Shown here: one piece after another, positions 12,914-64,000 of the stretch
Layout: the number at the start of each line of letters is the position of its first letter
Position numbering within the stretch: the first letter of the stretch is position 1
Source: a virus
Length of the DNA stretch: 64,000 nucleotides
Virus record (IMG/VR): IMGVR_UViG_3300045970_000382
Span: 92,224-156,223 of that record
Direction: 5' to 3' (one strand)
Translations under genes and position numbers: made by a program
Notes under the pieces: model-generated
Database searches by the model: none
What the model was told of the DNA's origin: nothing
Seen by the model: the letters and a program-made list of their open reading frames with translations, nothing else

Positions 12914-14437
12914 TTATTTTCCTTTAATTTTGGGTAAGATAATTTTATAATTTATTGAACCTAACAACTCTGTTATATTTTCGGTTACTAATAAATTAAT
13001 TTCATCTGTTGAAAGATTAATTGGGACTTTTAATTCCAAATCCAGTAATTTAATAATAGGTGAGACTTTTATTAATTTTGTTTCAGGTAATTGTTCAGTA
13101 GTTACTGTTATGGATAGTTCTTCTTCTGATTCCACTACAACAGTACTGGATTCATTAATGATTCTTGTTTGTTGTCTTTTTACCAGTTTGATTTCTTGTT
13201 TAACAGGAGTTATTTTTTCAACTTTAGTCTTTTTAAATATGGGATCTGAAGTAATTGATTGTTCTAGTTCCTTTAAAGTTAAATCTGTTAAATGAACTCT
13301 ATTTTTCAATACATGTTGGTAATTATTTTCAGAACTTTTTTGTATTATTATTAACTTTTTCTTAGCTAATACCATTTCAGGTAAAAAATCTTTATTAAAT
13401 TTGTCTTCAATAAAATAATCATTAATGGCTAAACAAGCAGAGGCATAATTATCGTAAGAATAAGATAAAAGAAATTTTAGATTGTCTTCTCTTTCAAAAA
13501 TTCTATCAATAACAGTATAGATTCCAGGAACAGTATTTGAAGATGACGAAGCAGTACCTGCTAAATAAATATTCCCACCTTGTTCATAATTAAAATTATC
13601 TTTATAGTGATTTTTTAATTCTTTTTCTGCATTAATGTAAAATAAGGCATTAACAGTATCGCGTTCTAAATATCCAACATTTTTTTCAGCAGACAATTTT
13701 TCTATAGATGAATTTAAAGATGAGATATATGAATCAATTATTTTTCTATTGGATGGAGTTAAACCATAATAATGACTTGGACTAATAACACGACCTGCTG
13801 TCACTGCTATGCTTTTTATTCTATGAGGAAAATAATCGTATTTAACGACTTCATTATTCTTAATTACAAAATTTGGTATTTGAATATGGCCTAGTCTAGC
13901 TCCAAATCCCCAAGTACTGGAATCACAACTATAAAATGGATATAGTTTTAATATATCAAGAGCAGTTGCAGCAAATCCATGAATCTTTACACGAGGTGAT
14001 CCATCAGGAAGTTGAATATACTGCTCAAATACTCTTTTAATCCATCCCTCATACGGAGCAGCGTAAGGTCCTTTATTGACACCCGCTACGCCTATGTATT
14101 CATAGGCATCTATCATTTTAGATAACCATTTGAAATCTTCAAATAAATGAAATGCAGGAATAGGATATAATCCATTTGATTCCATGTATTTAAGTATGTC
14201 CCAACTGTATCCAGGATGACCAATCACATCTAAAGTCACATAGAATGTAAGATTTTTAGATGCATGTAAGTATCCAATATACTTGTCAAGCATCGTTTTA
14301 AAAAATCTTGTTCTGATTATATTGTAATTTAGATTTGTATTACTTCTGAAGGATTTATCTTCGTAGTGCTGAATATAACGAGCAAAAACTGTATGTGCTC
14401 CACTATCGAGTGATAACCATAACTCTTTATCTTTCAT
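12914..14437 (-). CDS. dpdA: TGT-fold DpdA-like 7-deazaguanine DNA transglycosylase with long C-terminal extension
   Basis: LDSGA, TLDVIG, IPAFH, KIHGF and PFYSCDSSTW motifs; folE and a QueD-fold gene nearby. Confidence 0.75.
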   Translation of the reverse strand: MKDKELWLSLDSGAHTVFARYIQHYEDKSFRSNTNLNYNIIRTRFFKTMLDKYIGYLHASKNLTFYVTLDVIGHPGYSWDILKYMESNGLYPIPAFHLFEDFKWLSKMIDAYEYIGVAGVNKGPYAAPYEGWIKRVFEQYIQLPDGSPRVKIHGFAATALDILKLYPFYSCDSSTWGFGARLGHIQIPNFVIKNNEVVKYDYFPHRIKSIAVTAGRVISPSHYYGLTPSNRKIIDSYISSLNSSIEKLSAEKNVGYLERDTVNALFYINAEKELKNHYKDNFNYEQGGNIYLAGTASSSSNTVPGIYTVIDRIFEREDNLKFLLSYSYDNYASACLAINDYFIEDKFNKDFLPEMVLAKKKLIIIQKSSENNYQHVLKNRVHLTDLTLKELEQSITSDPIFKKTKVEKITPVKQEIKLVKRQQTRIINESSTVVVESEEELSITVTTEQLPETKLIKVSPIIKLLDLELKVPINLSTDEINLLVTENITELLGSINYKIILPKIKGK

Positions 14438-33380: not shown

Positions 33381-35009
33381 TCATAATAGTGAGAAAGAAG
33401 ATATTACAGCTGGAGTATTACTATCAAAACCAACAACATCTAACATATTGCTATCTAATGGGTCTGCTATTGTAAATCCATTTGATTCCATAGCAGTAAC
33501 AATTAATTTAGCATTAGGTTTATTCATAATTGTGCGGTATTTCTTAAGTAGCGTACTAGGATGTGATCCCTGATTTACTTCATTATCAGTATAACAAACA
33601 AATACATCCACATCCAGTTTATTGTCTATAGCGTATTCAAACATCAACCCTATATTGGTAGATCCAAAACTGGTATTATTTAATACATCAGTAACTTCTT
33701 TAAGACTCATAGTCTCATTTATAGCTAAAGGTTGTATCACGTTATGAAATCCAAGAATATAACATTTAGGTTCTGCTTTAATGGTAGTCATGGCAAGAAC
33801 AGCAGAAGCAACTCTTGGAGTAAATCCTGGAATACCACCAATATTGTTCCATGACATGGATGCCGACACATCTATACATAGTAAGTATTTTTTATTTGTG
33901 GGTTTAATATTTTCAAAGGCCATATAAAATGCTTTTTCAAGAGCAGTAACAATTCTATTTTCAGGATTCCAAATTAAGTTACCTTTTAAACCTCTACCTG
34001 ATTTATAGATATGGTAAGCCATTAAAATTTGTATAGGATGTTGACGAGAACGTTTAAGTTCTTCTTCATTGGTAATTCTACCAATAATATAATCCACATT
34101 ATCAGATAAAGGTTTTATATAACCATTAGCAGTAAGAACACCTAAATTACGCATCATGGCATCATACGGACTGTTTTTGATTAAAGAAGCCCAAATTTCT
34201 GGAATCTTCAACCAATCAGTAGGAATCATCTCCCTAGTTAAACCATAGCAATCAATAGCTTCTTTCTTTTCAGAAATAGTTGTTAGATGGTCATACTGAA
34301 ACGCTAGTTCATGTCCCACTAATATTCGTAATTCTTTATTAGCGCAATTTAGTTGGAAAGGTTTTTTAACAGCCCATGCAAAAAGGGTATTAATATCTTT
34401 GTTATCAGTCTTTGGTTTACAAAGACGAAGTACGTCTCGATGTGACCAACCATTTCTTGATTGGTATTTAACCAGTTGATAGGCTAATTTTGAAACATCT
34501 AAATCCAAATACCAGTTTTTAAGAGCATCAGAAAATAGTCTACCCCGACCACGGAAGTATTTAGAGTATTCAACAAAAGCAAACAAATGAGTTCCAATTC
34601 TACAAACCTCATTTAGTTTAGATAGTGCATATTTTCTTGTTTCTTTATTATCAACACTACCAGCATAAGCAAGAGCAAATATACAAGTTTCGTTTTTAAG
34701 ACAACGTCCTTCAGTTGAAATGTTGACAATAAGATCAATAGTTTCAATAGGATGTTTGAAGAGAGCTTTGTCTAAATCACTTACATTGTCTTTTGTAAGC
34801 TTTTTTTCTTTGACATAGTAGGTTCCGCCAGTTGTACCAAGAATAAGAAACCGTTCTACTTGTTTAAGTAATGGAGTTTCAAATATAAACCCACTTGTGT
34901 TATTTTCTACCATATCTGTACGACCAGCAATAGGTCTATCTACAGGTTGGTCGCCAACTATTTTTTTATGGGGGACGTGCTGCTCAAATTTGAAGGCCAT
35001 AATTTTCAT
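33381..35009 (-). CDS. rsr: Ro60/TROVE ribonucleoprotein (Rsr ortholog)
   Basis: RFLILGT.GGTYY, RIGTHLF, KYQSRNGWSHRDVLRL, AMMRNLG, HP; vWA MIDAS DVSASM and TDNE; DVVGFDS. Confidence 0.95.
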   Translation of the reverse strand: MKIMAFKFEQHVPHKKIVGDQPVDRPIAGRTDMVENNTSGFIFETPLLKQVERFLILGTTGGTYYVKEKKLTKDNVSDLDKALFKHPIETIDLIVNISTEGRCLKNETCIFALAYAGSVDNKETRKYALSKLNEVCRIGTHLFAFVEYSKYFRGRGRLFSDALKNWYLDLDVSKLAYQLVKYQSRNGWSHRDVLRLCKPKTDNKDINTLFAWAVKKPFQLNCANKELRILVGHELAFQYDHLTTISEKKEAIDCYGLTREMIPTDWLKIPEIWASLIKNSPYDAMMRNLGVLTANGYIKPLSDNVDYIIGRITNEEELKRSRQHPIQILMAYHIYKSGRGLKGNLIWNPENRIVTALEKAFYMAFENIKPTNKKYLLCIDVSASMSWNNIGGIPGFTPRVASAVLAMTTIKAEPKCYILGFHNVIQPLAINETMSLKEVTDVLNNTSFGSTNIGLMFEYAIDNKLDVDVFVCYTDNEVNQGSHPSTLLKKYRTIMNKPNAKLIVTAMESNGFTIADPLDSNMLDVVGFDSNTPAVISSFSLL

Positions 35010-35676: not shown

Positions 35677-35801
35677 GGTTACTGGTGGGACTCGAACCTA
35701 CGACAAACTGTGTTTTGATAATCTAATATCATCAGTTCAAAAGAACAAGATTGAATATTAGTATTTTATGACGGCTGTTCTACCGCTGAACTACAGTAAC
35801 C
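35677..35801 (-). ncRNA. tRNA-His-derived Y RNA (YrlA-like, circularly permuted)
   Basis: 8-bp acceptor GGUUACUG/CAGUAACC, canonical D and T arms; CUUGUUC-UUUU-GAACUGA...AUUAUC in place of the anticodon loop. Confidence 0.8.
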
Positions 35802-38533: not shown

Positions 38534-39268
38534 CTAATCATCAAAATCTACCTTGTAATCAACAAGAGCTTGGTACACCCGTGGATCAAGCTCTTCTTTA
38601 TATAAATTTGCCAATCTTTTAATTTCAGCTTCTTTAGCAGGTTTATATACTAGATATGCTTCTTGTTCTGTTTTGAAACTACCAAGATGTTTTGTTTTTC
38701 CTTCAATATTACAACGGGCTTGGTATGGTTTTGTTCTACCTTCACGGTACGTAACTCCAATACGAAGTTCACCTCTGCTAGCATCACTTTTTGTTAAAAG
38801 ATAATTTATTTTAGATGGAACCAAACAACATGTTTCTCTTGAATATATCTTATTTCTTTTAAATAATATATCTTTGTCTAAATGCCAATCCAAATCTGAA
38901 CCCACCATTAGTAAATAATCATGAGCGAAGTTTTGAAAACTATGCCATCTAATATCTACAGTACATCCAATATAAGTAGGATATTTTCTCTGAATATCTT
39001 CGTTATAACATCTTTGTAGCATACAAATCCAAACCATATAAATCCTTTTATGTGATGTATAAGAATAAATTCCAATTCCAATAAAACCAACACCACTAAA
39101 TTTAAGACTTGGATATTTAACATTTCCATTTCTTAAATTTTGGGCTGTACAAATTTTTTCAGCTCCATCTTCAAATCTAATTCTTACATTATTACAATCT
39201 ATATACTCTATTACAACACAAGAACCATAATTATTTGTTTCAAATCTATCACCAACTTTTATTTGCAT
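38534..39268 (-). CDS. HNH-like/AP2 homing endonuclease, family copy 7
   Basis: Same motifs as copy 1. Confidence 0.8.
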   Translation of the reverse strand: MQIKVGDRFETNNYGSCVVIEYIDCNNVRIRFEDGAEKICTAQNLRNGNVKYPSLKFSGVGFIGIGIYSYTSHKRIYMVWICMLQRCYNEDIQRKYPTYIGCTVDIRWHSFQNFAHDYLLMVGSDLDWHLDKDILFKRNKIYSRETCCLVPSKINYLLTKSDASRGELRIGVTYREGRTKPYQARCNIEGKTKHLGSFKTEQEAYLVYKPAKEAEIKRLANLYKEELDPRVYQALVDYKVDFDD

Positions 39269-42412: not shown

Positions 42413-42931
42413 TTAATTTGGTACTCCTCTTAAACCATATAATTCTACTCTTTTACCCCAAACTTTTTTATTATTTTGTTTTTGTTCTTCAGTTCTTTTC
42501 TTTCCTTTATTAGCTTCAGATATTTTTTGTTTGTGTTCTGGAGTCTGTTTTTTACCTAAACAATATGTATTTCCTTTCTTTAATTCAGATATTTTTTTCT
42601 TAGTTTTTTCTGAACAGATGCATACTTCACCGCCTGTAGTAAGATTATATCCATTAGGAAATAAAGCATTGTAATATTCTATATAATATTGTTCTTTTAT
42701 TTGTGCTTCTTTTAAAGTAAGATTTTCTTCTAATATGTTATGTTCAAAAAGAATCCAACTATATTTTTTAATAGCGGATGCAAACCTGGTCTTACTCTTT
42801 GCCAATTTATGTTCATAACATCTTCGTTTATAACGCTTCGTAATTCCTATATAACATTTACCAGATGGTGATCTATGCATGTAAACTATATAATCTCTAA
42901 TAGTCTTTATCCTTTTTCTAAAAATTTCCAT
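42413..42931 (-). CDS. GIY-YIG endonuclease with NUMOD3-like repeats, copy 1
   Basis: YIVY...CYIGIT...R..EH and NGYNLTTGG motifs. Confidence 0.85.
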   Translation of the reverse strand: MEIFRKRIKTIRDYIVYMHRSPSGKCYIGITKRYKRRCYEHKLAKSKTRFASAIKKYSWILFEHNILEENLTLKEAQIKEQYYIEYYNALFPNGYNLTTGGEVCICSEKTKKKISELKKGNTYCLGKKQTPEHKQKISEANKGKKRTEEQKQNNKKVWGKRVELYGLRGVPN

Positions 42932-42951: not shown

Positions 42952-43069
42952 AAAAAAGCCCAGCACCAGAATATAGTTGCGATATATTCTTAGAACTAGG
43001 CTTAGTAATAGCTGGATTACAGACTATTCAAATTAATATCGCAACTATAATTTGAATAAACTATTCCAG
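42952..43069 (-). promoter_or_regulatory. Two-hairpin leader with complementary loops (GUUGCGA/UCGCAAC)
   Basis: Hairpin, UAUUACU linker, terminator-like hairpin, U-tract. Confidence 0.65.
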
Positions 43070-43121
43070 TTTAAACTATTTTTAGTAATTGTAAAGAGTT
43101 TATTTTCAAGATATTTTAGAC

Positions 43122-43219: not shown

Positions 43220-43954
43220 TCAGTCATCAATTTCAACCTCATAATTCATTAAAGCTATATAAACTCTTGGATCTAATAAATCTTTGTAAAAATCAGCCAA
43301 TCGTTTTATTTCAGTCTCTTTAGCTATTTTGTAAGCTTGGTATGCTTCTTCTTGTGTTTTGAAATAACCAAGATTTTTATTTTTTCCTTTAATACTACAT
43401 TGAGACATATAAGGTTTTAATTTACCTTCAATATAAGTTACTCCAATCAATAATTCACCTCTACAAGATTCTTTTTTTATTAAAACCGAGTTTATTTGAG
43501 ATGGAACTAAACAACATTTTTCTGGTGAATAAACCTTATTATGTTTAAAAAGAATATCTTTATCCAGTTGCCAGCCTAAGTCTGAACCATACATTAATAA
43601 ATAATCGTGGACATAATTCTGAAAATTATACCATCTAATATCTACAGTACATCCAATATAGGTAGTATGTTTTAACTGGACATTTTCGTTATAACATCTT
43701 TTTAACATATTTCCCCAACAATTAGAAATTCTTGGATGTGATATTTTTGAATAAATTCCAATTCCAACAAAACCAACACCACAAACAATTGGATGATTTG
43801 GATTTTTAACATTTCCTCTTCTTAAATCACCCGCTCTGCAAGACATTTCATAACCATCTTCAAATCTAACTCTTATATTATTCCAACTAATATACTCTAT
43901 AACAGTACAAAAACCAGATTTAGTTGTTTCAAATCTATCTCCAACTTTTATCAT
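43220..43954 (-). CDS. HNH-like/AP2 homing endonuclease, family copy 8
   Basis: Same motifs as copy 1. Confidence 0.8.
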   Translation of the reverse strand: MIKVGDRFETTKSGFCTVIEYISWNNIRVRFEDGYEMSCRAGDLRRGNVKNPNHPIVCGVGFVGIGIYSKISHPRISNCWGNMLKRCYNENVQLKHTTYIGCTVDIRWYNFQNYVHDYLLMYGSDLGWQLDKDILFKHNKVYSPEKCCLVPSQINSVLIKKESCRGELLIGVTYIEGKLKPYMSQCSIKGKNKNLGYFKTQEEAYQAYKIAKETEIKRLADFYKDLLDPRVYIALMNYEVEIDD

Positions 43955-46900
43955 AGTTGTGTACGTCCTGACATCTGATGTCTATTGAAGTTTGTTCCCT
44001 TTTTAGAATTAGGGTTCCATCTTAATTGGTTTCTAAAGTCTTCACTCTGAATTAGTAAAAATTTCTCACCAGTATACCCAATATAACCATTACCTTGTTC
44101 TATTACAGCATCACATCCCTCTATGTGGAATAAAATAAATAGCATCAAATCTTTTCTTAAGCTGTGAGGTAGAGCGATAGACCATTTTTGTCCATGACTC
44201 TGATTCCAGTTTGGCTGCATGTCAAGATTTTTGACACCGAAGAATTGTTCCAGTAACTCTTTTCCTTGATCTGTTACATCATAAAGCATACGAAGACAAT
44301 ATGGATCAATTTCTCCAGTAAGATAAATAAGGCCATAGTTTCTTAATTTTTCTGTTGAATCTAACATAATAGACTCAATTGTTTTCACTTTCATGAGATT
44401 TCACCGTTTTGGTTTGTTTATAAAGTGTTATTATATACAATGTAAACTTATAATGCGAGAGTTAATGTTATTAATTTTTTAATGAATCTGAAATTCTTTT
44501 GTTATAGAGTTCTATCAGTTGATTTTTAGTAGGTAATAAAGACCTGTTTTTGTTTTGGAAAATCAAGCAAGAATAAAAGCAGCCATTTAGATCATTATCT
44601 GATTGTGACCTAGTATCTAAAGGGCATTTACAATTTTTTGTTCTATCTAAAGGTGCTATTCGGTCTTGTTTAAGGAATTGATCCGGCCATTTATGGTCTT
44701 GTGCGTCAGGCCATAATGCCACTGAATTATTGCATAGACCTATACTACAATCTATATATTTGTTACCAGGTTCAGTATTATCTACATAATTTAAAGGTCG
44801 GTCATTTTCAATAAGATTTAACATCCTTTGCATAGCTAAAATATATCTGTGCCTGGGTAAATAGGTTACTTTATTTCGTGTAAAAGGATGTTTGTAGTGA
44901 GTCATTGTTAATTTTAAACAGGTATTTTTAACATCCAGAAACCATCATTACCAAAACCTTTATAAAGAGTTTTAGTAATTGGACTTCTAGCTACGTCAAT
45001 GAGTGGAACTAACACGTTCAGTAATTTTAACAATTGGTCTACATCTATGCCAAATTCTTGATATAGAGCTTGTTCAATAACATAATCCACATCGTCATTG
45101 GTAAATTCATCTTCATCTATATTAAGAATATGCAACAGTAGTTCTTGTGCATCTAAAAAATCTATTTTCTTAGTCATTGTATTTAGTAAGATCAAGTAAA
45201 ACTTCAGCTAGCCTACAACCTAGTTTATGGTCTTGGTTATCAGGAAGCTATCCTGATTCATCAGAGCCAGAGCCAGGTTTAATGCCTTTACATAAAGGAC
45301 AGCAAGGCAACCAGTGCAGTAGCTATATACTTCACTCCACTCTAAATCTTTCAGTAACTTATAAAGCTTGTACTGGGTAAAATTGGTAACTTCAGTCATT
45401 CTGCTAAAGAAAGAATAGTTCTATTAGAAATAGTACCTCTATAAATACGATCTTCTAAAGGAACTTCATCTAATTCATAGTAAAGAACATACCATTGGTT
45501 ATCAAGAGCGAAGCTGGCAGATATTCTAGCTTCAATATGATCCTCTCCTTCGCTAATAAAATAACCTGGATAATGAGGTTGTCCAACATCTAAAGTGACA
45601 TAGTATTTGTTCATTTGGATCTCTTTTATGAAGTGTGATTAATATTTACATTATAACAAAACTACAAACGAAATGAAAGACTCATTCAAATTTAAAATAC
45701 AAAAACAATAATAGGATAAGAATATTTAGATCTGTCCATATTGACATAATTAGATTCATCTTTGTTTATCTTTGTTCATAATGGTTTATTCTAATCTTGG
45801 GTTCCTTAAATTCAAGATAATTTTTAAAAACTTGTAAATCTAAATATAAAGCATCCAGAAATTCAAAATTGGTGTAGGCCGAAGCTTCAATTCCATGATT
45901 ACTTAAAATTTCTATAGATGTTCCACCTCCTAGCAATCCACCTTGATTATCTCCTTTAAGCAAACTTCCATATAGAACAAATCCATCATTAAGATCAACT
46001 AAATTCTTTCCTGAATTAGTGACAACCACTTTTTTAAAATCCATAAATTTCACCTATTTAATTAAAATTAATTTAGACAGTTTAATAATCAAATCCTCAA
46101 CACGATTTAAAGGAAGGTAACAAGAATAATCTTCTTCCAATTCATTAGAATAATTGTCTCCATCATCAAGATAGTCACAAATGATGCAGCCATTTTTATC
46201 TACTACTGTCACGAAATAAAGATGTTGTAGATCATCGTCCTCTTTATCTTTCTGAGTAATAGTCATAACTAGATCGTTGATGAAGGTAACTTCAGCAATC
46301 TTCGCAACATTAGAAGATTTATCTTTCCAACGTATAAGGACTTTTTTATATCTTCTTGCCATAAAAAGAGTTTAGAAAACAGCCTCGTAAGCATTTTTGA
46401 TGACACATACCAAATCTTGGTCACTTGCTGTTATGATTCCATCAAATTCACAATACCAGATTGGTGGTGTGTGACCTCTTTTAACGAAGTTGTAGTTATT
46501 TTCTAATAACTGACAATACTGGTCATAGATTCTCAATTTAGATTCAGCATTTAGATATTCATATACTGATCCATAAGCCATGTCTAAAAAGTTGTTGAAT
46601 TCCATAGTATCAATATCTACATCATCTTCTTCATCTTCTTCATCTTCCGAGACATCTTCGTAATAGAATCCATCATTGAGATTCACTACCAGACCTGTAT
46701 CATTATCATGAAGAAAGAGTTTTGGACTATCTTGTTCAAGATTTTCAATAATTATATCTTTTAACTCTTCACAAGATAAATTCCAATACGTAACATCACC
46801 TTTATAACTCACCCTTGTTTTAGTTTGCATGAAAAAAATCCTAAAAAGTAAAATTAATATTATACATTAACTAAAGTAGAAAGTCAAGACTGTAATTTTC

Positions 46901-47140
46901 AAAATCGGTCACGAAAATTTCATTTCTTGCCAATCTATTTTATCAGGATTAATTCTCAATTTTAATTTCGTATGCAGTAAAGGTAGACTTAGAGTCGAAG
47001 TAAATCCACAATTTGGATATTTTTTTACAGCCAAAGAATGACTGTCCAGAATAATTTCTTTTGACAATTTTACCTTTACAAAAAGGACAGTCACCATAAG
47101 TGAAAAAATTAGGTTGTTTTAGTGGATTTGGCATAGTTTA

Positions 47141-47464
47141 TTACTCATATTCAGGACAGTGAATCCAAGTTTCTATAGTTTCAGTTGTAATAGTTTTAAC
47201 TCTTTTTATTAATCTCATTTGGGATTCTTTTTTACGAAAATCTGTCTCATCCCGATTACCTTGTTTACCAATATGGCAGTCTTCACAGAGAGGTTGAAGA
47301 TTATTAATATCAAGTGATAATTCTGGATATTTTTTTCTTGGTTTAATATGTGACACAATAATTTTTGTATCACTCCCACAACATAAACATCGTTTACTAT
47401 AGAGCGATAATACTTCTGAAGCAAGTTTTTTCCAAATATGGGTTTTAAAAAATTTGTGTTTCAT
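47141..47464 (-). CDS. Small HNH endonuclease
   Basis: CLCCG, HIKP and NLQPLCEDCH motifs. Confidence 0.85.
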   Translation of the reverse strand: MKHKFFKTHIWKKLASEVLSLYSKRCLCCGSDTKIIVSHIKPRKKYPELSLDINNLQPLCEDCHIGKQGNRDETDFRKKESQMRLIKRVKTITTETIETWIHCPEYE

Positions 47465-47615
47465 AATTTTATAGATTTTAAGTTAAGTGTGGTTATTAAT
47501 TTTAAATTTAGTTTATTTGTATTAGAAATACCAGATTTTATTTAAAATAAATATGTTGTAACTAGATTTATTACGAAACTTCATAACTTCTTGATTTTCT
47601 TAGATTTTTTTCCTA

Positions 47616-47640
47616 TATTATATTATATTATATTATATTA
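47616..47640. repeat. (TATTA)5 microsatellite
   Basis: Read directly from the sequence. Confidence 0.9.
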
Positions 47641-47649
47641 TAAGATATT

Positions 47650-48470
47650 ATAAACATAAAAATATCTGAATGGCGTAATACAAGAGGCGTCCCCAGGACT
47701 CCACAGTTTCACTAACCAATTTCCGATTACACTAATAAAAATCTCAAAATTGAAATTTTTAAAATCCTGTCTAAACCTAATCTAAGAAACACAATTTCAC
47801 GAATTATCAGGAGGTTTATTACCCAGTCCCACATCTGGTAAAGTATCACAAGCCAAGCTTACACTTGAGATAGTCCTTCATTTATTTTATAAAACACCCA
47901 AAAGTTTCGTACTGAGTTGTAAATCATCCTTGGGTTTAGCTTTTAAAACTTATTAATTCTCAGTCTATGAAGGAAAAGTTTACATTTTAAAAATCTAAAT
48001 TACTTACCTTTGTTTTTGTAATACAGCTTTATTTGTTCTTGATCTTTTTACTCGGTCGTTATCGAGCCTCTCCGGATCAGGGCTAGTGGTTGCCACCCAC
48101 TCCTATTTCTATCTTCAACATTGGATATGTTAAAGATTCCTACGCCATTAACTCCCAGGTCTATCACTGACTTTCGGTTGGAATGCTTTTTAGGCTATGA
48201 AATCTTTAATAAACTAGACTTTAAATTGTCTGGGTTACATATAGAACCGCACGTAGGCCGTTAGGGCGTTTAGTTCCATAATTCCTGTAAAAGTTAAAGT
48301 TTTAAGACATAACTTATCTAGATTTACAATTCAGTTTTTTCATACTGGGTTGGTATAAGTCATCCTTCAGTAGTTCAATAAGATACTACGTGTAAGTTCC
48401 TTTTCCCCTTCGACGATGTCTACAAGGCTCTTCGTACCCAGATTCTATAGGTCACTACTTTATTCGTTTA
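47650..48470 (-). ncRNA. Candidate large ornate ncRNA
   Basis: No ORF of 60 aa or more; nested long-range helices and many hairpins; upstream minus-strand promoter. Confidence 0.5.
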
Positions 48471-48516
48471 AAAGATTATTTTTTTTCGACTTAGGATAAG
48501 TCAGGATGAGGTTTAA

Positions 48517-48630
48517 ACTATTTGAGTAACCATGCTATTAGGTTAAAACGGTAAAACTATTTGAATAATGTGGGGCAGAATTCGGTAAAAAAGTTAAATC
48601 TTAGATACATAGCATGGTTACTCAAATAGT
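48517..48630. repeat. Perfect 22-bp inverted repeat with 70-bp spacer
   Basis: ACTATTTGAGTAACCATGCTAT at 48517-48538 and its reverse complement at 48609-48630. Confidence 0.9.
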
Positions 48631-48840
48631 CTAACCTATTTGATTATCTAAAATTTAATTTAATTACCCAGCCCCTGCCCCCAAGAACTTATTTTGCCTT
48701 ACCAAGATTGATAAGACGAGTACAGCATATTACATTTTTCAACAAAAATCAAGGCCAAATTTTCAATTATTTTTAAAAGCCTTTACTGTCAAGTTTATAT
48801 CATGTATAATGCAATATAAACAAATAGTTACGAGGCAGTT

Positions 48841-49158
48841 ATGTTTAAATTTAATCCCAATGACATTAATTCATTACAAATAACAGTCACGCACTCATCT
48901 CAATCAGTAGAAGTTATTTACAATGACGGGTCAAAAAGAATTTACAATAACAAAGCAGCACCTGTTAATGAGACTAGAGACATGAGAATAAACCTTCTTG
49001 TTCTATTCAAGGATAAGGATAAAGCGAAAGCAAAAGGAGCTAAATGGGACCCAGGAAGGAAAACTTGGTATATAGAAAATGTAGAGGACTTAGAGCCATT
49101 TTTAGAGTGGGTTCCTAAGCACTTATTAAAGCCTTACCGTGCTTTAAACACTTTGTAG
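48841..49158 (+). CDS. DUF5710-like protein
   Basis: L.V.F.DKD.AK..GAKWD...K.WY motif. Confidence 0.7.
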   Translation: MFKFNPNDINSLQITVTHSSQSVEVIYNDGSKRIYNNKAAPVNETRDMRINLLVLFKDKDKAKAKGAKWDPGRKTWYIENVEDLEPFLEWVPKHLLKPYRALNTL

Positions 49159-49397
49159 GGAATTATTTATGAGTTTTATAGGTGTATTAGTACTATCTGC
49201 ATTAGCCATTTTTGTGGTAGGCTACTTGTTCATCTATAGTAGCCCATTCATTAGATTTTTAAATCAAGATGAAAATGACAGGAATTAGATATGGATTTTT
49301 TGGATGTAGTAGTAAGTATACTAACGATTCTAAGTATTGCTGGGCTTCTTGCTGTGGTTTGGTGGTTAGGTCGTTAATTTAGTTGTCCTTTTTAAGG

Positions 49398-49434
49398 GTA
49401 TCTCCCGGCCTAACCGCCGGGAGCGGATTGAAAC
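49398..49434 (+). CRISPR. Solitary 37-bp CRISPR repeat unit (RNA anti-CRISPR candidate)
   Basis: GTATCTCCCGGCCTAACCGCCGGGAGCGGATTGAAAC: GT start, 8-bp hairpin, ATTGAAAC end; no neighbouring repeat. Confidence 0.8.
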
Positions 49435-49463
49435 ATTTTTATTATTTTTTTAGGATGTCAATT

Positions 49464-49733
49464 ATGAGTAAAATATACAAAGAGTCACCTTTCGGTTCTA
49501 TTTTCAATTCATTTGAGGTATCAGATGAAGGGGAACATAATCTAGAATTGTTTTTTAACGAGGGTGGGGAGTTGGAGTTATGCAGAAAGGCTGAAAAGGC
49601 AGAGGATGGGTCTGTTTATCAGAGTGTAGATCTTCATTTAGAGTTCGAGGAGGTTGTGCGATTGAAAAACTTTTTAATTTTCGCTCTTAAACCCTTCCGG
49701 GAAAACGAAGAAGATCTCTATTCAGAGGATTAG
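49464..49733 (+). CDS. Small acidic hypothetical protein directly after the solitary repeat
   Basis: AGGA RBS then ATG 49464; very Glu/Asp-rich. Confidence 0.6.
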   Translation: MSKIYKESPFGSIFNSFEVSDEGEHNLELFFNEGGELELCRKAEKAEDGSVYQSVDLHLEFEEVVRLKNFLIFALKPFRENEEDLYSED

Positions 49734-50262
49734 AGATGGCTTTTCATGTCCCCGAAGAATTTTATTGCCTCCGAGAGATTTTGTATGAAGAATGCGAGTA
49801 AAAATTGTGAGATAGATATATTAAAAAAAATCTTTCCTAATTGTAAACCACAAGGTAGCTCAAAAACAATAACTTGGACTCTGATAGAGGGTACAAGATT
49901 GGATGTTTGCTGCACTATTAAAAATGCGGGTTGGATCGAAACAAATGAATTACGGCACAGTGAGGCTGCATTTGTCCATAAAAAGTACCCTAATTTAAGA
50001 ATAGCTCTTGACTATTCTAGTCTGAAACCTGGATGGATGAATGTAATGGTAGTGACTCCTACGGAATCTAAAGTATGACAGGTTACGAGTTACAGTCTGT
50101 TTTAAAAGCCTATGTCACCTTACTTGAAGGAGAAAATCCGTTTGAACTAAATCTCTTTAAGCCGAGCATCACTGTGAAGGAAGCAACAGAGATGATGGAG
50201 TTACTACCTAAAGTACGGGAATATTTAGCAAAAAATAAAGTTAGGAAGCCTATGACTTCATC

Positions 50263-50398
50263 TTGACATTGTATAAAATAGCGTATATAATTAAGATGTT
50301 ATTGGCGTACTATGAGTAAGATATTAAGCCAATAACATCTGTGTTATTACTGAAACCCAGCTCTAGTGTACTTACTCTACATTATCTGGGTTTCTTTT
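50263..50398 (+). promoter_or_regulatory. Consensus promoter plus two-hairpin leader with complementary loops (GAGUAAG/CUUACUC)
   Basis: TTGACA-N17-TATAAT; 13-bp stem; GAAACCCAG/CTGGGTTTC followed by T-tract. Confidence 0.75.
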
Positions 50399-50414
50399 AT
50401 TTAGGTTTAAAAAG

Positions 50415-51155
50415 ATGAAAACTATATCAAGAGGAGATGTTTTTGAAACGAACATATCTGGTTTTTGTACTGTTGTAGAGTATATAGATTCACGAAATGT
50501 GAAAGTTAGATTTGAAGATGGATTTGAAACAATTTGTCAATCTGGTCAATTAAGAAATGGTCAGGTTAAGAATCCAAATAATCCAATTATTTATGGTGTT
50601 GGTTTTATAGGAGTTGGAAATTATTCTCATAAATCACATCCAAGAATTTATTACTGTTGGAGGGACATGATAGGAAGATGTTATCACAAAGTTACTCAAT
50701 TAAAACATCGATCTTATATTGGTTGTACTGTATGTGAAAGATGGTGGAATTTTCAAAATTTTTGTTATGATTACTTGATAATGGTAGGTTCAGATTTAAA
50801 TTATCATTTAGATAAAGATTTATTATTTAAAGGAAATAAGATATATTCACCAGAAACATGTTGCTTAGTTCCACGTCAAGTAAATAACGTTTTAGAAAAA
50901 TGTGATGCTAATAGAGGTGAATGTTGTATTGGAGTTAATTACTATGAAGATAAAATAAATCCATACAAAGCTACTTGTAACGTTGAAGGAAAACAAAAAT
51001 ATCTTGGTATTTACAAAACAGAACAAGAAGCACGACAAGTCTATAAAGTAGCTAAAGAAGCTGAATTTAAAAGACTGGCTAATTTATACAAAGATACATT
51101 AGATTCAAGAGCTTATATAGCTTTAATGAATCGCACGGTTGATGAAGATGATTAG
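50415..51155 (+). CDS. HNH-like/AP2 homing endonuclease, family copy 9
   Basis: Same motifs as copy 1. Confidence 0.8.
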   Translation: MKTISRGDVFETNISGFCTVVEYIDSRNVKVRFEDGFETICQSGQLRNGQVKNPNNPIIYGVGFIGVGNYSHKSHPRIYYCWRDMIGRCYHKVTQLKHRSYIGCTVCERWWNFQNFCYDYLIMVGSDLNYHLDKDLLFKGNKIYSPETCCLVPRQVNNVLEKCDANRGECCIGVNYYEDKINPYKATCNVEGKQKYLGIYKTEQEARQVYKVAKEAEFKRLANLYKDTLDSRAYIALMNRTVDEDD

Positions 51156-58252: not shown

Positions 58253-58656
58253 GAGTTACTCATACAAATAATCTTATAACTCCAGAGTTTCGATTAAGAA
58301 GAAACAAATAGTACATTGGATCCAGGTAGCACTTTTAATTTTTGTGTTATCGGGATACTGGGAGTTCGGAGAGAGAGATCCAAATCCAAGTGTTTTTGAA
58401 CTTTCCTGGGAAGTGTTTTTTAAGAGATCCAAATCTATCTTTATTGTTAAGAAGAAAATCCAAATCCATTTAAGAATTACATGTTTGTAAGAAGATGGGA
58501 TTTATCAAGAAATAAATCCATTTTAAGCTAGATTACTTCCCAGAACTGGCCTTCTAGACATAATATGCCTCGAAATCCCAGTCTGAGTTTGCCCAGGACT
58601 ATCCTTGCACCTTGATCTATCCAAACCTTATCAATTAATCACTGTCAAGAATCTTT

Positions 58657-58756
58657 GATTTAAGCAACGATAATTTTTTACTGCTACCATTGCATTGCTA
58701 GTAAAGGACTCTAGTCACTATCAGCTTATTTGGTGGCTTAAATTGCGTATTTTTGG
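58657..58756. repeat. ~100-bp phased T-tract element, copy E
   Basis: TTTAAGCAACG...ATTTGGTGGCTTAAAT. Confidence 0.5.
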
Positions 58757-59466
58757 CTAGTTGTTAGTTACATGGTAGCAATAATGAAAGCATATTGCAA
58801 GACGCGATTGAAAATAAATTGTCAGACCAAAATCTAGCATAAAACAATAAGCTGAAATGATGTTCTAAAAATAAGACATAGTGGTGTATATCACTTGACT
58901 CTGTTTAGTGCCAAAAATAAGCATAAATCCATCTAATTAAAGATAGAAGCACGACATATCGATCTAGATCATACTTATGAACAATCCAGAATAAATCTAG
59001 ATTTAATTGAGAAGAAACCTAGGCAAAAGGCCGTTAGAGACGTTAGGGTTTTAGCAACTTCGTAAGCCTTTATTTATAAAAGGATGGATTAAATCCAATA
59101 AAACAGGACAAAAAGTTATTTTCGCCACTGGTGGGAATTTTGAAATTACAAAACTCTATCATTTTTTATGGATTTGGAAGCCACTGAGTTAGTCTAGATT
59201 GAGTGGCTTCTAGAATTGAAAAACAGATATGGATATACTGGGTGTGCCAAAATATATGAATCTAGATTTGCTAGCCCCTTGCTCTGACCTGCTGAAAATA
59301 TTGTTAATCTAGATAATACTTGCCCAGAGCTTATCTAGGTTTAGTATTAAGCCAAAAAGAGAGTCAGATAATAAATATCTGACTCTTGAGTTGAGCCATT
59401 ACAGCCCATCGGTGTACAACATGACATTGTGGAATAAAATCTTTTATTAAAATCTTATTCCACAAC

Positions 59467-59484
59467 CAGCACGTCCATGTGCTG
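59467..59484 (-). promoter_or_regulatory. CsrA/RsmA-type GGA hairpin, copy 1
   Basis: CAGCACAUGGACGUGCUG. Confidence 0.5.
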
Positions 59485-59780
59485 TAGCCATTAAATACTG
59501 ATTAGATATATGAAGTAATGCTCTTCATTGTATTTTGCCACGGTATGACCTGAACTTTTAAACGTATCATATACTTCAGGCATATACAGTCTTAAGTTAT
59601 CAGCACCTTCTGACGAATCATATCTACCAATGCCAATTCTACTTTTGCCATTTTCAGCAATCTTGTCAGTAATAAGTGCAGTGAGTGACTCTACAATAAA
59701 CTTTCGTTTTACTTGTGGAGTCGGTTCAGTTTCACTTTGTTCGAGCCGTATACCGTATTGAAGATCGTATTTCATGTTGT

Positions 59781-63216: not shown

Positions 63217-63825
63217 ATGGAACTAATTAAGAGACAGAAGACTGTTAGAGATTATGTAGTCTATGTACATAGATCACCTTCTGGAAAGTGTTATGTTGGA
63301 ATAACTAAACACTATGCTAGGCGATGTTTAGCACATCAGCATGAAAGTAATAGATGTAGATTATTTGCTAGAGTTGTTAAGAAATATGGATGGGAGAATA
63401 TAGAACATATCATACTTGAATCTGGACTAACTTTAAAAGAAGCTAAAGAGAAAGAACAATATTACATAGAGTATTATAATTCATTTGCACCACATGGCTA
63501 TAATCTAACTACGGGAGGTGAAGGTTACACAGTTTCGGATGAAACTAGGCAAAAACAATCTAATTCATTGAAAGGACATAAACATACAGATGAAACTAGA
63601 CAAATAATGACTCAATCTAATAAGAATAAAGGTTCTAAAAGATCAGAAGAATTTAAGAAGATGATCTCTCAAATTAATAAAGGTAGAAATCCTTCTAGAG
63701 AGCAAAAAGTAAAAGCATCTGAATCTAATAAAGGTAAGAAAAGAACTGAAGAACAAAAACAAAATCATAAAGCAGCATGGATTAAAAGAGTAGAGTTGTA
63801 TGGTTTAAGGGGTGTCAAACAGTAG
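63217..63825 (+). CDS. GIY-YIG endonuclease with NUMOD3-like repeats, copy 3
   Basis: VYVHRSPSGKCYVGIT, GYNLTTGG; C-terminus nearly identical to copy 1 (KRVELYGLRGV). Confidence 0.85.
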   Translation: MELIKRQKTVRDYVVYVHRSPSGKCYVGITKHYARRCLAHQHESNRCRLFARVVKKYGWENIEHIILESGLTLKEAKEKEQYYIEYYNSFAPHGYNLTTGGEGYTVSDETRQKQSNSLKGHKHTDETRQIMTQSNKNKGSKRSEEFKKMISQINKGRNPSREQKVKASESNKGKKRTEEQKQNHKAAWIKRVELYGLRGVKQ

Positions 63826-64000
63826 GTATTTTTGTGAGCTATACTAGCACACCAAGGCATTGTGGAGCGTGTTACCAAGACGATTTTTTGGGGCTTAAAG
63901 ATGGTGTTTTGATGGTTTGCCAAGATGGTATTTAGGCGCTGTCTAGACAAGCAATTTTGTAACTAGATTTGATCTAGGTTTGAGAATCGAGATTGCTTGT

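What the first reader, a model, noticed from the sequence alone, without database searches (positions are those of the whole stretch)
47650..48750. Candidate ~800-1000-nt ornate non-coding RNA at the strand-switch point
Seen: 1.37 kb without an ORF of 60 aa or more in a gene-dense genome. Nested complementary segments: AATGGCGTA 47669-77 with 48141-49 encloses ATTTTTAAAAT ~47755 with ~47984, which encloses CCTTCAT 47875 with 47967, which encloses CCCAA/TTGGG. A second domain is closed by TCTGGGT 48229 with ACCCAGA ~48436. There are many local hairpins and a minus-strand TTGATT-N17-TATGCT promoter at ~48724-48752. An HNH gene lies downstream. Known: phages encode giant RNAs such as GOLLD and ROOL, and HEARO/omega RNAs associate with HNH proteins. 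Inference: a large structured RNA of unknown class. An origin function is the alternative.
Basis: partly seen in the sequence, partly recalled or inferred. Interest (0 to 1): 0.75.

Follow-up and report, generated by a model that had tools for sequence, protein, structure and literature searches.

The report
Conserved 1.4-kb non-coding phage gap
The largest gene-free stretch of a 156-kb pond phage is truly non-coding and is kept nearly unchanged in related phages.

Summary
**Observation.** The ORF-free gap 47465-48840 is real. It is the largest gap in a complete 156-kb orphan phage and lies at the leftward/rightward strand switch.

Their number is no higher than in shuffled sequence.
- Whole-region folding energies match shuffles (z +0.3 and -0.35). 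The best sub-domain reaches only z -1.5 and -2.05.
- Rfam (GOLLD, ROOL, HEARO, introns) gives nothing.
- The cited promoter matches only 8 of 12 consensus positions.
- The neighbouring HNH gene encodes 107 aa with an HNH domain only. It is not IscB, and it seems to be missing from a relative.

**Signs of function.**
- The region shows no coding signal and no protein similarity.
- Short contigs from four other freshwater metagenomes cover parts of it at 92-100% identity. The flanking genes are at 81-97% or absent.
- Conserved islands alternate with variable patches. One hairpin keeps its pairing through a compensatory change.
- The 840-nt core has coding-level GC and the strand composition of the leftward transcription unit.
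- The right 350 bp is a separate module: a 26-bp inverted repeat plus clustered CAAATAGT boxes.

**Limits.** Family-level relatives (polymerase 42% identical) lack the region. No full sequences of close relatives and no RNA data could be obtained.

**Verdict.** This is a lineage-specific conserved non-coding control region, probably with a leftward untranslated transcript. An "ornate RNA" is unsupported. The scan holds no earlier look-alike on other DNA.

The parts
47141..47464 (-). Stand-alone HNH endonuclease gene (107 aa). It is the left neighbour, is probably a mobile insertion, and is not part of the element.
   Evidence: It matches PF01844 at 1.3e-8 and phrog_144. An X4 contig that matches from 47500 rightwards carries 180 nt of unlike sequence to the left.
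47465..47660 (.). AT-rich spacer (14.8% GC). It holds a (TATAT)x7.8 microsatellite at 47614-47652 and a promoter-like TTTATA-N16-TATAAT pointing left (47654-47627).
   Evidence: The identical Logan contig L008 breaks at 47614.
47661..48500 (-). Conserved, unique, non-coding core of 840 nt with 34.9% GC. The minus-strand assignment is inferred from composition only.
   Evidence: Relatives are 94-100% identical over 47664-48386. There is no repeat excess, no protein hit and no Rfam hit. On the plus strand the GC skew is -0.13 and purines are 44.8%, matching the leftward gene block (-0.09 +/- 0.08; 45.7 +/- 2.2%) and not the rightward block.
47669..47677 (.). AATGGCGTA, the 9-nt partner of 48141-48149. 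The pair closes the 47664-48154 domain in the predicted folds of both strands.
   Evidence: A single 9-mer pair is expected by chance.
48141..48149 (.). TACGCCATT, the partner of 47669-47677. The alignments of two relatives end at 48152, just after it.
47819..47830 (+). TTACCCAGTCCC, one of only two copies of TTACCCAGYCCC in the whole genome. Unexplained.
   Evidence: family D4.
48664..48675 (+). TTACCCAGCCCC, the second copy, 845 nt from the first in the same orientation. On the minus strand it lies in a G-rich tract, GGGGGCAGGGGCTGGG.
48157..48173 (+). Small hairpin AGGTC-TATCACT-GACTT at the start of a variable patch. In the X6 relative it reads GAAGAC-TTTGACT-GTCTTT. U-A has become A-U (compensatory) and G.U has become A-U. 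The pairing is complete only when read on the plus strand.
   Evidence: (loose end behind 48152). This is one case only, so the evidence is weak.
48513..48634 (.). Large inverted repeat with 26-nt arms (25 of 26 complementary; the odd pair is G.U on the minus strand) and a 70-nt spacer. Alternative inverted repeats overlap it (48545-68/48618-41 and 48584-607/48645-68).
   Evidence: Window z-scores are -3.7 (plus) and -4.6 (minus)..
48511..48646 (.). Cluster of boxes with the core CAAATAGT / ACTATTTGA at 48517(-), 48556(-) and 48623(+), and a weaker copy at 48635. They are candidate protein-binding sites (operators or iterons).
   Evidence: There are 13 cores in 156 kb and 4 of them lie within 310 bp here.
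48724..48752 (-). It matches 8 of 12 positions and is weak.
48782..48828 (+). Rightward promoter-like TTTACT-N17-TATAAT, followed by a fifth CAAATAGT box (48821-48828) ahead of the DUF5710 gene. The box is not kept in the X6 relative.
   Evidence: loose end before 48830.
48841..49158 (+). First gene of the rightward block of small genes. It encodes a 105-aa DUF5710 protein and is the right neighbour.
   Evidence: The X6 relative is 89% identical over 48830-48955.

Best explanation
The gap is a composite, lineage-specific non-coding control region between the phage's leftward replication block and its rightward block of small genes.

1. The right 350 bp (48500-48840) is a DNA-level control module. 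It holds divergent promoter-like sites, a 26-bp inverted repeat and four or five CAAATAGT boxes that a regulator or initiator could bind.
2. The left 200 bp is an AT-rich promoter and microsatellite spacer.
3. The 840-nt core between them is a conserved, unique sequence. It is most likely copied leftward as a long untranslated RNA, either a leader of the leftward operon or a separate non-coding RNA. Its function would depend on sequence or on modest local structure, not on an ornate global fold.

Shown: the region is non-coding, conserved, composite in anatomy, compositionally like the leftward unit, and outside every known RNA family. Inferred: transcription, strand and function.
For: - Non-coding.
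- Largest gap of the genome, at the strand switch.
- Conservation: X4 contigs match 47664-47814 with 1/151 mismatches, 47816-47976 with 6/161 and 47973-48273 with 17/303. X3 matches 48129-48386 with 0/258. X6 matches 48234-48384 with 3/151. X5 shows islands at 92-97%.
- Flanks in the same runs are less conserved: 46062-46607 at 84-88% and 48830-48955 at 89%. X5 and X6 have almost no left-flank contigs at 80% or better.
- Conserved islands alternate with unlike patches at 48153-48277 and 48586-48658.
- Core GC is 34.9% against 14.8% in the adjacent spacer and 32.7% genome-wide.
- Core strand composition equals that of the leftward block. It lies 3-5 sd from the rightward block.
- The boxes and the inverted repeat are confined to the right module.
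- The phage uses RNA-level leaders elsewhere and carries a Ro60-like gene with a tRNA-like RNA.
- Precedent: the most abundant ICP1 transcript is an ~800-nt RNA in a 1-kb ORF-less gap (PMC7567579).
Against: - No strong promoter points into the core, and no terminator ends it.
- Folding is no better than shuffles.
- The one hairpin with a compensatory change pairs fully only on the plus strand. The 47664-48154 domain also scores slightly better on the plus strand.
- The runs were found through words of this region, so its identity to relatives is biased upward.
- Identity in X4 peaks next to the HNH site, as gene conversion around a homing endonuclease would also produce.
- The strand composition could also be a replication effect or a relic of old minus-strand genes.
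Confidence: 0.4

Rival explanations
1. The region is a DNA-level cis-acting site and the core is never used as RNA. It could be a replication origin, with CAAATAGT boxes as iterons, the inverted repeat, and the AT-rich (TATAT)n tract as the unwinding element. Alternatively it could be a large conserved untranslated repeat region like the injection-stop (iss) region of phage T5.
For: - There are three direct box copies and one inverted copy, plus overlapping inverted repeats.
- An 85% AT tract is present.
- The local cumulative GC-skew minimum is at ~48.8-49.0 kb.
- T5 Repeat Region 3 is a 1.2-kb untranslated stretch. It is conserved far better than the neighbouring ORFs, has a 131-bp inverted repeat with spacer, and has an HNH gene inserted beside a repeat region (Davison, bioRxiv 10.1101/866236).
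- The gap lies 15 kb (9.7%) from the right end of a record whose first and last 195 nt are the same.
Against: - The 840-nt core has no repeat excess, and unique sequence is unusual for binding-site DNA.
- There are no DnaA boxes in the gap.
- The boxes and the AT tract are 850 bp apart.
- No initiator gene was recognised nearby.
- The skew switch coincides with the switch of gene orientation, so it is not independent evidence.
- The 48821 box is not kept in the X6 relative.
- The terminal repeat is only 195 bp, whereas the T5-like phage BF23 is cited with ~9.7-kb terminal repeats (abstract of PMC10644984).
Confidence: 0.3
2. The region is a large, ornate structured RNA of a new class, about 0.8-1 kb long.
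For: - The region is conserved and non-coding with an island/variable-patch pattern.
- One hairpin is kept by a compensatory change.
- The domain 47664-48154 closed by a 9-bp helix scores z -1.5 and -2.05.
- Phages are known to carry GOLLD and ROOL (PMC5737381; bioRxiv 10.1101/2024.12.08.627333).
Against: - Global and most local folding energies equal shuffles.
- Complementary segments are at chance level.
- There is no Rfam match even at E <= 10.
- No look-alike appears among 50,697 phage records or in three family-level relatives.
- Those relatives have no comparable gap. In G007 the leftward-to-rightward switch (61627/61717) is 90 nt wide; its correspondence to this junction is inferred from gene order only.
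Confidence: 0.12
3. The region is DNA without a function of its own. It is either a decayed remnant of small early genes or a spacer. It stays similar among relatives through recent recombination, or through gene conversion around the neighbouring homing endonuclease site.
For: - The region sits in a hypervariable, homing-endonuclease-rich neighbourhood.
- None of the flanking small genes is found in family-level relatives.
- X4 identity falls with distance on both sides of the HNH site: 99, 96 and 94% rightwards, and 93-97% then 84-88% leftwards.
- The minus-type composition could be a relic of old minus-strand genes.
Against: - Five of the six frames have about the number of stops expected of random sequence. 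The sixth, plus frame 0, has fewer (22). The expectation of about 35 is my own estimate from base composition.
- No open segment resembles a protein.
- In X5 and X6 identity is patchy, not a gradient. 97-98% islands lie further from the HNH site than 94% islands, with sharp unlike patches between them.
- Phage genomes rarely keep 1 kb of useless DNA. This genome is 91% coding.
Confidence: 0.15

Closest known systems
ICP1 ~800-nt non-coding transcript in the ~1-kb ORF-less gap between gp139 and gp140 (PMC7567579)
   Same: Both are ORF-less gaps of about 1 kb in a large lytic phage. Neither has tRNA neighbours or belongs to a known RNA family.
   Different: In ICP1 the transcript is demonstrated and is the most abundant one. 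Here no RNA data exist. There is no sequence similarity to any GenBank phage.
Phage T5 untranslated Repeat Region 3 / injection stop signal (Davison, bioRxiv 10.1101/866236)
   Same: Both are untranslated regions of about 1.2-1.4 kb that are conserved better than the flanking ORFs. Both have a large inverted repeat with a spacer (131 bp in T5, 122 bp here). Both have an HNH endonuclease gene inserted beside them, and both are bordered by a block of small genes. That the block here is early is inferred from gene size and position only.
   Different: T5 has eight paired DnaA boxes and many nested repeats and lies in a long terminal repeat. Here there are no DnaA boxes, repeats occur only in the right 350 bp, the terminal overlap is 195 bp, and the phage is unrelated to T5.
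GOLLD and ROOL large ornate RNAs of phages and bacteria
   Same: Similar size range and a phage setting.
   Different: There is no match to the Rfam models, no adjacent tRNAs, and no thermodynamic sign of extensive structure.
HEARO / omega RNA with IscB
   Same: An HNH-domain gene is adjacent.
   Different: The protein is 107 aa with an HNH domain only and no RuvC. There is no HEARO model match. The HNH gene is apparently absent from a relative.
Transcript-primed origins (ColE1 RNA II; T4 oriF/oriG; T7 primary origin). This comparison rests on my own knowledge.
   Same: A promoter-like site is followed by a long conserved untranslated stretch that runs into a very AT-rich tract.
   Different: Nothing here shows priming or an R-loop. 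The promoter is weak.

Membership tests
GOLLD / ROOL | Match to the Rfam covariance model | tested here: not met
   cmscan found nothing at the gathering score on the whole window. At E <= 10 on 47300-49000 it gave only miRNA-like hairpin noise.
GOLLD / ROOL | Frequent neighbourhood of tRNA genes | tested here: not met
   ARAGORN finds no tRNA in the window. The only Rfam tRNA-like hit is 12 kb away.
HEARO / omega RNA | Adjacent IscB (RuvC plus HNH, about 400-500 aa) and a match to the HEARO model | tested here: not met
   The neighbour is 107 aa and matches PF01844 only. There is no HEARO hit.
Group I / II intron | Match to the intron covariance models and a split host gene | tested here: not met
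   There is no Rfam hit. The flanks are complete, divergent genes.
Structured non-coding RNA in general | Folding energy clearly below shuffled sequence | tested here: not met
   z is +0.31 and -0.35 over 851 nt. The best sub-domain gives -1.51 and -2.05.
Structured non-coding RNA in general | Covariation in an alignment of homologues | not testable with these tools
   Relatives exist only as 150-300-nt contigs whose sequences cannot be fetched. One hairpin shows one compensatory change.
Structured non-coding RNA in general | A stable transcript | not testable with these tools
   No RNA data were available for this region.
T5-type iss untranslated repeat region | Large untranslated region conserved better than the flanking ORFs, with a large inverted repeat plus spacer | tested here: met
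   compared with the description.
T5-type iss untranslated repeat region | Paired DnaA boxes | tested here: not met
   No TTATCCACA with up to 1 mismatch occurs in 47465-48840.
T5-type iss untranslated repeat region | Position inside a long terminal repeat | tested here: not met
   The record's ends share only 195 nt.
Iteron-type replication origin | Three or more repeated binding boxes | tested here: met
   There are three direct copies and one inverted copy within 48511-48646.
Iteron-type replication origin | Adjacent AT-rich unwinding element and an adjacent initiator gene | tested here: inconclusive
   The AT-rich tract lies 850 bp from the boxes. No initiator was recognised among the neighbours.

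The most novel reading that the evidence does not exclude
The 840-nt core, with or without the 26-bp hairpin, is a new ~1-kb phage non-coding RNA restricted to one lineage. It would be unrelated to GOLLD, ROOL or any Rfam family and would act in early infection. One possible role is as a pre-primer transcript that runs into the AT-rich tract, an origin of the ColE1 RNA II kind. Another is as an anti-defence or regulatory RNA, in a phage that already carries Y RNAs and CRISPR-repeat decoys.
Probability: 0.15. Interest if true: 0.65.

Novelty: new variant of a known kind. Interest (0 to 1): 0.35.

Why it matters
Large conserved non-coding stretches are rare in phage genomes. Where they have been studied they proved important: the T5 injection stop region, the most abundant ICP1 transcript, GOLLD and ROOL. 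This one sits at the early control point of an orphan 156-kb freshwater phage. The phage also invests unusually heavily in RNAs. If the core is transcribed it would add a new large phage RNA. If not, it marks an origin or another cis-acting site in a phage group with no cultured member. As it stands it is a candidate, not a discovery.

Tried and rejected
**Homologue hunt, mostly empty**
- blastn against 50,697 phage records found no match.
- Exact-pattern scans of IMG/VR with three conserved 23-25-mers found nothing.
- One scan of GTDB genomes found nothing.
- The JGI metagenome scan with a 22-mer gave two hits, L010 and L011. Both share only the 22-mer, so they are chance matches.
- Flank proteins have no relatives with complete genes and sit in single-member clusters.
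- The loci found through the DUF5710 and HNH proteins (L004-L007, L009) are unrelated phages.
- L008 is 100% identical to the window, so it shows no variation.
- The longest open frame of the gap has no protein look-alike.

**Family-level relatives**
- Relatives found through a DNA polymerase profile carry no similar DNA. They have no comparable gap and none of the flanking small genes.

**Other readings tested**
- Recoding or an alternative genetic code is rejected, because every frame has all three stop types.
- Small ORFs with a ribosome-binding site: none is convincing.
- Pseudogene: no Pfam or PHROG hit in ten open segments.
- Paralogues inside the genome: none.
- A TTATTAC + CCCAG resemblance to the three leader hairpin elements of this phage was examined. 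It was judged too short to count.
- A GNRA-receptor-like CCUAAG/UAUGG pair seen by eye was judged chance.

**Data not available**
- No RNA holder is listed among the sequencing runs.
- Parts of the stretch without contig cover in runs X3-X6 were not interpreted.
- The scan's own notes hold no look-alike on other DNA.

Full report
**Setting.** The window is the last 64 kb of a 156,223-bp IMG/VR phage record. The first and last 195 nt of the record are the same apart from one mismatch, so the genome is complete: a circular assembly or a short terminal repeat.

The phage is an orphan.
- Its family A DNA polymerase is only 30% identical to that of any GenBank phage.
- It is 41-44% identical to the nearest of 1.8 billion protein cluster representatives.

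Genes run rightward over 3-88 kb. A leftward block follows over 88-139.7 kb and holds the replication genes. Rightward small genes begin at 141.06 kb. The finding is the gap between the last two blocks.

**Checking the observation.** 47465-48840 (1376 nt) has no ORF of 60 aa or more and is the largest gap in a 91%-coding genome.
- Each frame carries 22-46 stop codons of all three kinds, so recoding is excluded.
- Ten open segments hit no Pfam or PHROG family.
- The longest open frame has no look-alike among 5.8 billion protein clusters.
- No small ORF has a convincing ribosome-binding site.

The structural argument fails the chance test.
- Outside one large inverted repeat, complementary k-mers are no more frequent than in dinucleotide shuffles (k=9: 7 against 3.3 +/- 2.5).
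- MFE z-scores are +0.31 and -0.35 for 47650-48500, and +0.91 and -0.46 for 48155-48500.
- The best values are -1.51 (minus) and -2.05 (plus), for the 47664-48154 domain closed by the 9-bp pair.
- The block best conserved in relatives, 47664-47813, scores -0.6 and -0.4.
- Rfam 15 gives nothing at gathering thresholds. At E <= 10 it gives only miRNA-like noise on the inverted repeat.
- The promoter matches 8 of 12 positions, whereas the phage's evident early promoters are perfect TTGACA-N17-TATAAT.

**Anatomy.** The gap has three parts.
1. *47465-47660.* This part is 14.8% GC. It has a (TATAT)x7.8 microsatellite and a leftward TTTATA-N16-TATAAT.
2. *47661-48500, the core.* It is 840 nt of unique sequence at 34.9% GC, above the genome mean of 32.7%. 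Its plus strand has GC skew -0.13, AT skew -0.09 and 44.8% purines. These are the values of the leftward gene block (-0.09 +/- 0.08; -0.085; 45.7 +/- 2.2%). They lie 3-5 sd from the rightward block. Compositionally the core belongs to the leftward unit, and the switch falls at about 48.8-49.0 kb.
3. *48500-48840, a repeat-rich module.*
   - It has a 26-nt-arm inverted repeat (48513-38/48609-34) with a 70-nt spacer, and two overlapping alternative inverted repeats.
   - It has a cluster of boxes with the core CAAATAGT. Four of the genome's 13 copies lie within 310 bp, and there is also a weaker copy.
   - It has a rightward TTTACT-N17-TATAAT.

A 12-mer, TTACCCAGYCCC, occurs only twice in the genome, at 47819 and 48664. 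I have no explanation for it.

**Relatives.** No sequence of a close relative could be fetched.
- The flank proteins have no relatives with complete genes.
- Exact-pattern scans of IMG/VR, JGI metagenomes and GTDB genomes gave nothing or chance hits.

Word-based run search did find four freshwater or sediment metagenomes from other studies that hold parts of the gap. Laying their contigs on 45000-51000 gave these identities.

| Run | Region | Mismatches or identity |
|---|---|---|
| X4 | 47664-47814 | 1/151 |
| X4 | 47816-47976 | 6/161 |
| X4 | 47973-48273 | 17/303 |
| X4 | 46062-46607 (flank) | 84-88% |
| X4 | 46724-47143 (flank) | 93-97% |
| X3 | 48129-48386 | identical |
| X6 | 48026-48152 | 94% |
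| X6 | 48234-48384 | 98% |
| X6 | 48830-48955 (DUF5710 gene) | 89% |
| X5 | 48034-48152, 48278-48336, 48439-48585, 48659-48777 | islands at 92-97% |

- The X5 islands are separated by stretches the aligner could not follow.
- X5 and X6 show almost no left-flank contigs.
- Two relatives stop aligning at exactly 48152.
- The X6 sequence just beyond that point keeps a 5-6-bp hairpin (48157-48173) through one compensatory change and one G.U-to-A-U change. The pairing is complete only on the plus strand.
- An X4 contig that matches from 47500 rightwards is unlike for 180 nt to the left. The HNH gene is therefore probably a mobile insertion that this relative lacks.

Caveats apply. The runs were chosen through words of this very region, which biases its identity upward. 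Contigs from one run may come from several strains. The X4 identities fall with distance from the HNH site, as gene conversion would produce. Even so, the patchy pattern in X5 and X6 argues for uneven constraint and against a simple conversion gradient.

**Deeper relatives.** A polymerase profile found IMG/VR phages at 42-43% polymerase identity. Three of them (111, 97 and 65 kb) were read whole.
- They hold no DNA similar to the gap.
- None of the small genes flanking the gap is present.
- They have no comparable gap. In G007 a leftward-to-rightward switch, which looks like the corresponding junction by gene order, is 90 nt wide.

The region is therefore specific to this lineage and lies in a hypervariable neighbourhood rich in homing endonucleases.

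**Interpretation.** The region is non-coding and very probably functional. The right-hand module looks like DNA-level control: operators or iterons, with promoters.

The core is harder to place. An RNA product is suggested by these points:
- It is unique sequence.
- Its GC is at coding level.
- Its composition is of the sense-strand type for the leftward unit.
- It is conserved in islands.
- There is a precedent in the ~800-nt ICP1 transcript from a 1-kb ORF-less gap (PMC7567579).

No result supports an elaborate fold. The strand hints conflict, since composition points to minus while one hairpin and the z-score point to plus. No good promoter or terminator frames the core.

The T5 injection-stop region shows that a phage can keep 1.2 kb of untranslated DNA better than the genes around it, for a DNA-level role. 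Unlike this core, that region is full of repeats and DnaA boxes, and the gap here has no DnaA boxes.

My odds are:
- Leftward untranslated transcript within a composite control region: 0.40.
- Purely DNA-level site (origin or iss-like): 0.30.
- Ornate structured RNA as proposed: 0.12.
- Functionless DNA kept similar by recombination: 0.15.

**Comparison with known families.** It is not GOLLD, ROOL, HEARO/omega RNA or an intron: the models do not match, there are no tRNAs nearby, and the HNH protein is not IscB. It shares the general character of the ICP1 gap RNA and of the T5 untranslated repeat region, but has neither sequence similarity nor their defining details.

**Verdict.** The gap is real, and its conservation makes it worth a follow-up. 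The claim of a giant ornate RNA is not supported by any test that could be run. Interest is moderate to low until relatives are reassembled for a covariation test or RNA data become available.

Noticed in passing
genome record ends (G000:C1:1-195 and 156029-156223; the latter is window 63806-64000): The first 195 nt equal the last 195 nt apart from one mismatch, although the record is labelled linear without end repeats. The genome is complete: a circular assembly or a short direct terminal repeat.
   Followed up: partly
window 58433-59490: This is the second-largest ORF-free gap of the genome (1058 nt, 34% GC). It has no Rfam hit at the gathering score and no similarity to the gap studied here.
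   Followed up: no
window 38534-39268 (-), 43220-43954 (-), 50415-51155 (+), 42413-42931 (-), 47141-47464 (-): There are three paralogous phrog_953 HNH-type endonuclease genes, a GIY-YIG homing endonuclease and a small HNH within 13 kb. The neighbourhood is rich in homing endonucleases.
   Followed up: partly
window 33381-35009 (-) and 35677-35800 (-); G005:C1:93837-97455: A Ro60-like gene (phrog_850) lies next to an Rfam tRNA-like hit. The family-level relative G005 also has a Ro60 homologue (39% identical) among several 500-900-nt ORF-free gaps. The Ro60 gene with neighbouring non-coding DNA may therefore be conserved across this phage family, though no RNA was searched for in the G005 gaps.
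   Followed up: partly
window 49394-49439: Contigs of three other metagenomes (X3, X5, X6) repeat this stretch every ~70 nt with different inserts. They are CRISPR arrays that share the repeat carried singly by the phage (tables 5 and 5c).
   Followed up: no
window 43069-43080 (-) and 48511-48522 (-): The 12-mer AATAGTTTAAAC occurs only twice in the genome: at the foot of the large inverted repeat and at the start of the leader upstream of the GIY-YIG gene. It may be a shared regulator site or a chance match.
   Followed up: partly
window 12914-14437 (-): A DpdA/queuine tRNA-ribosyltransferase-like gene (phrog_887) hints that the phage DNA is modified with a 7-deazaguanine.
   Followed up: no
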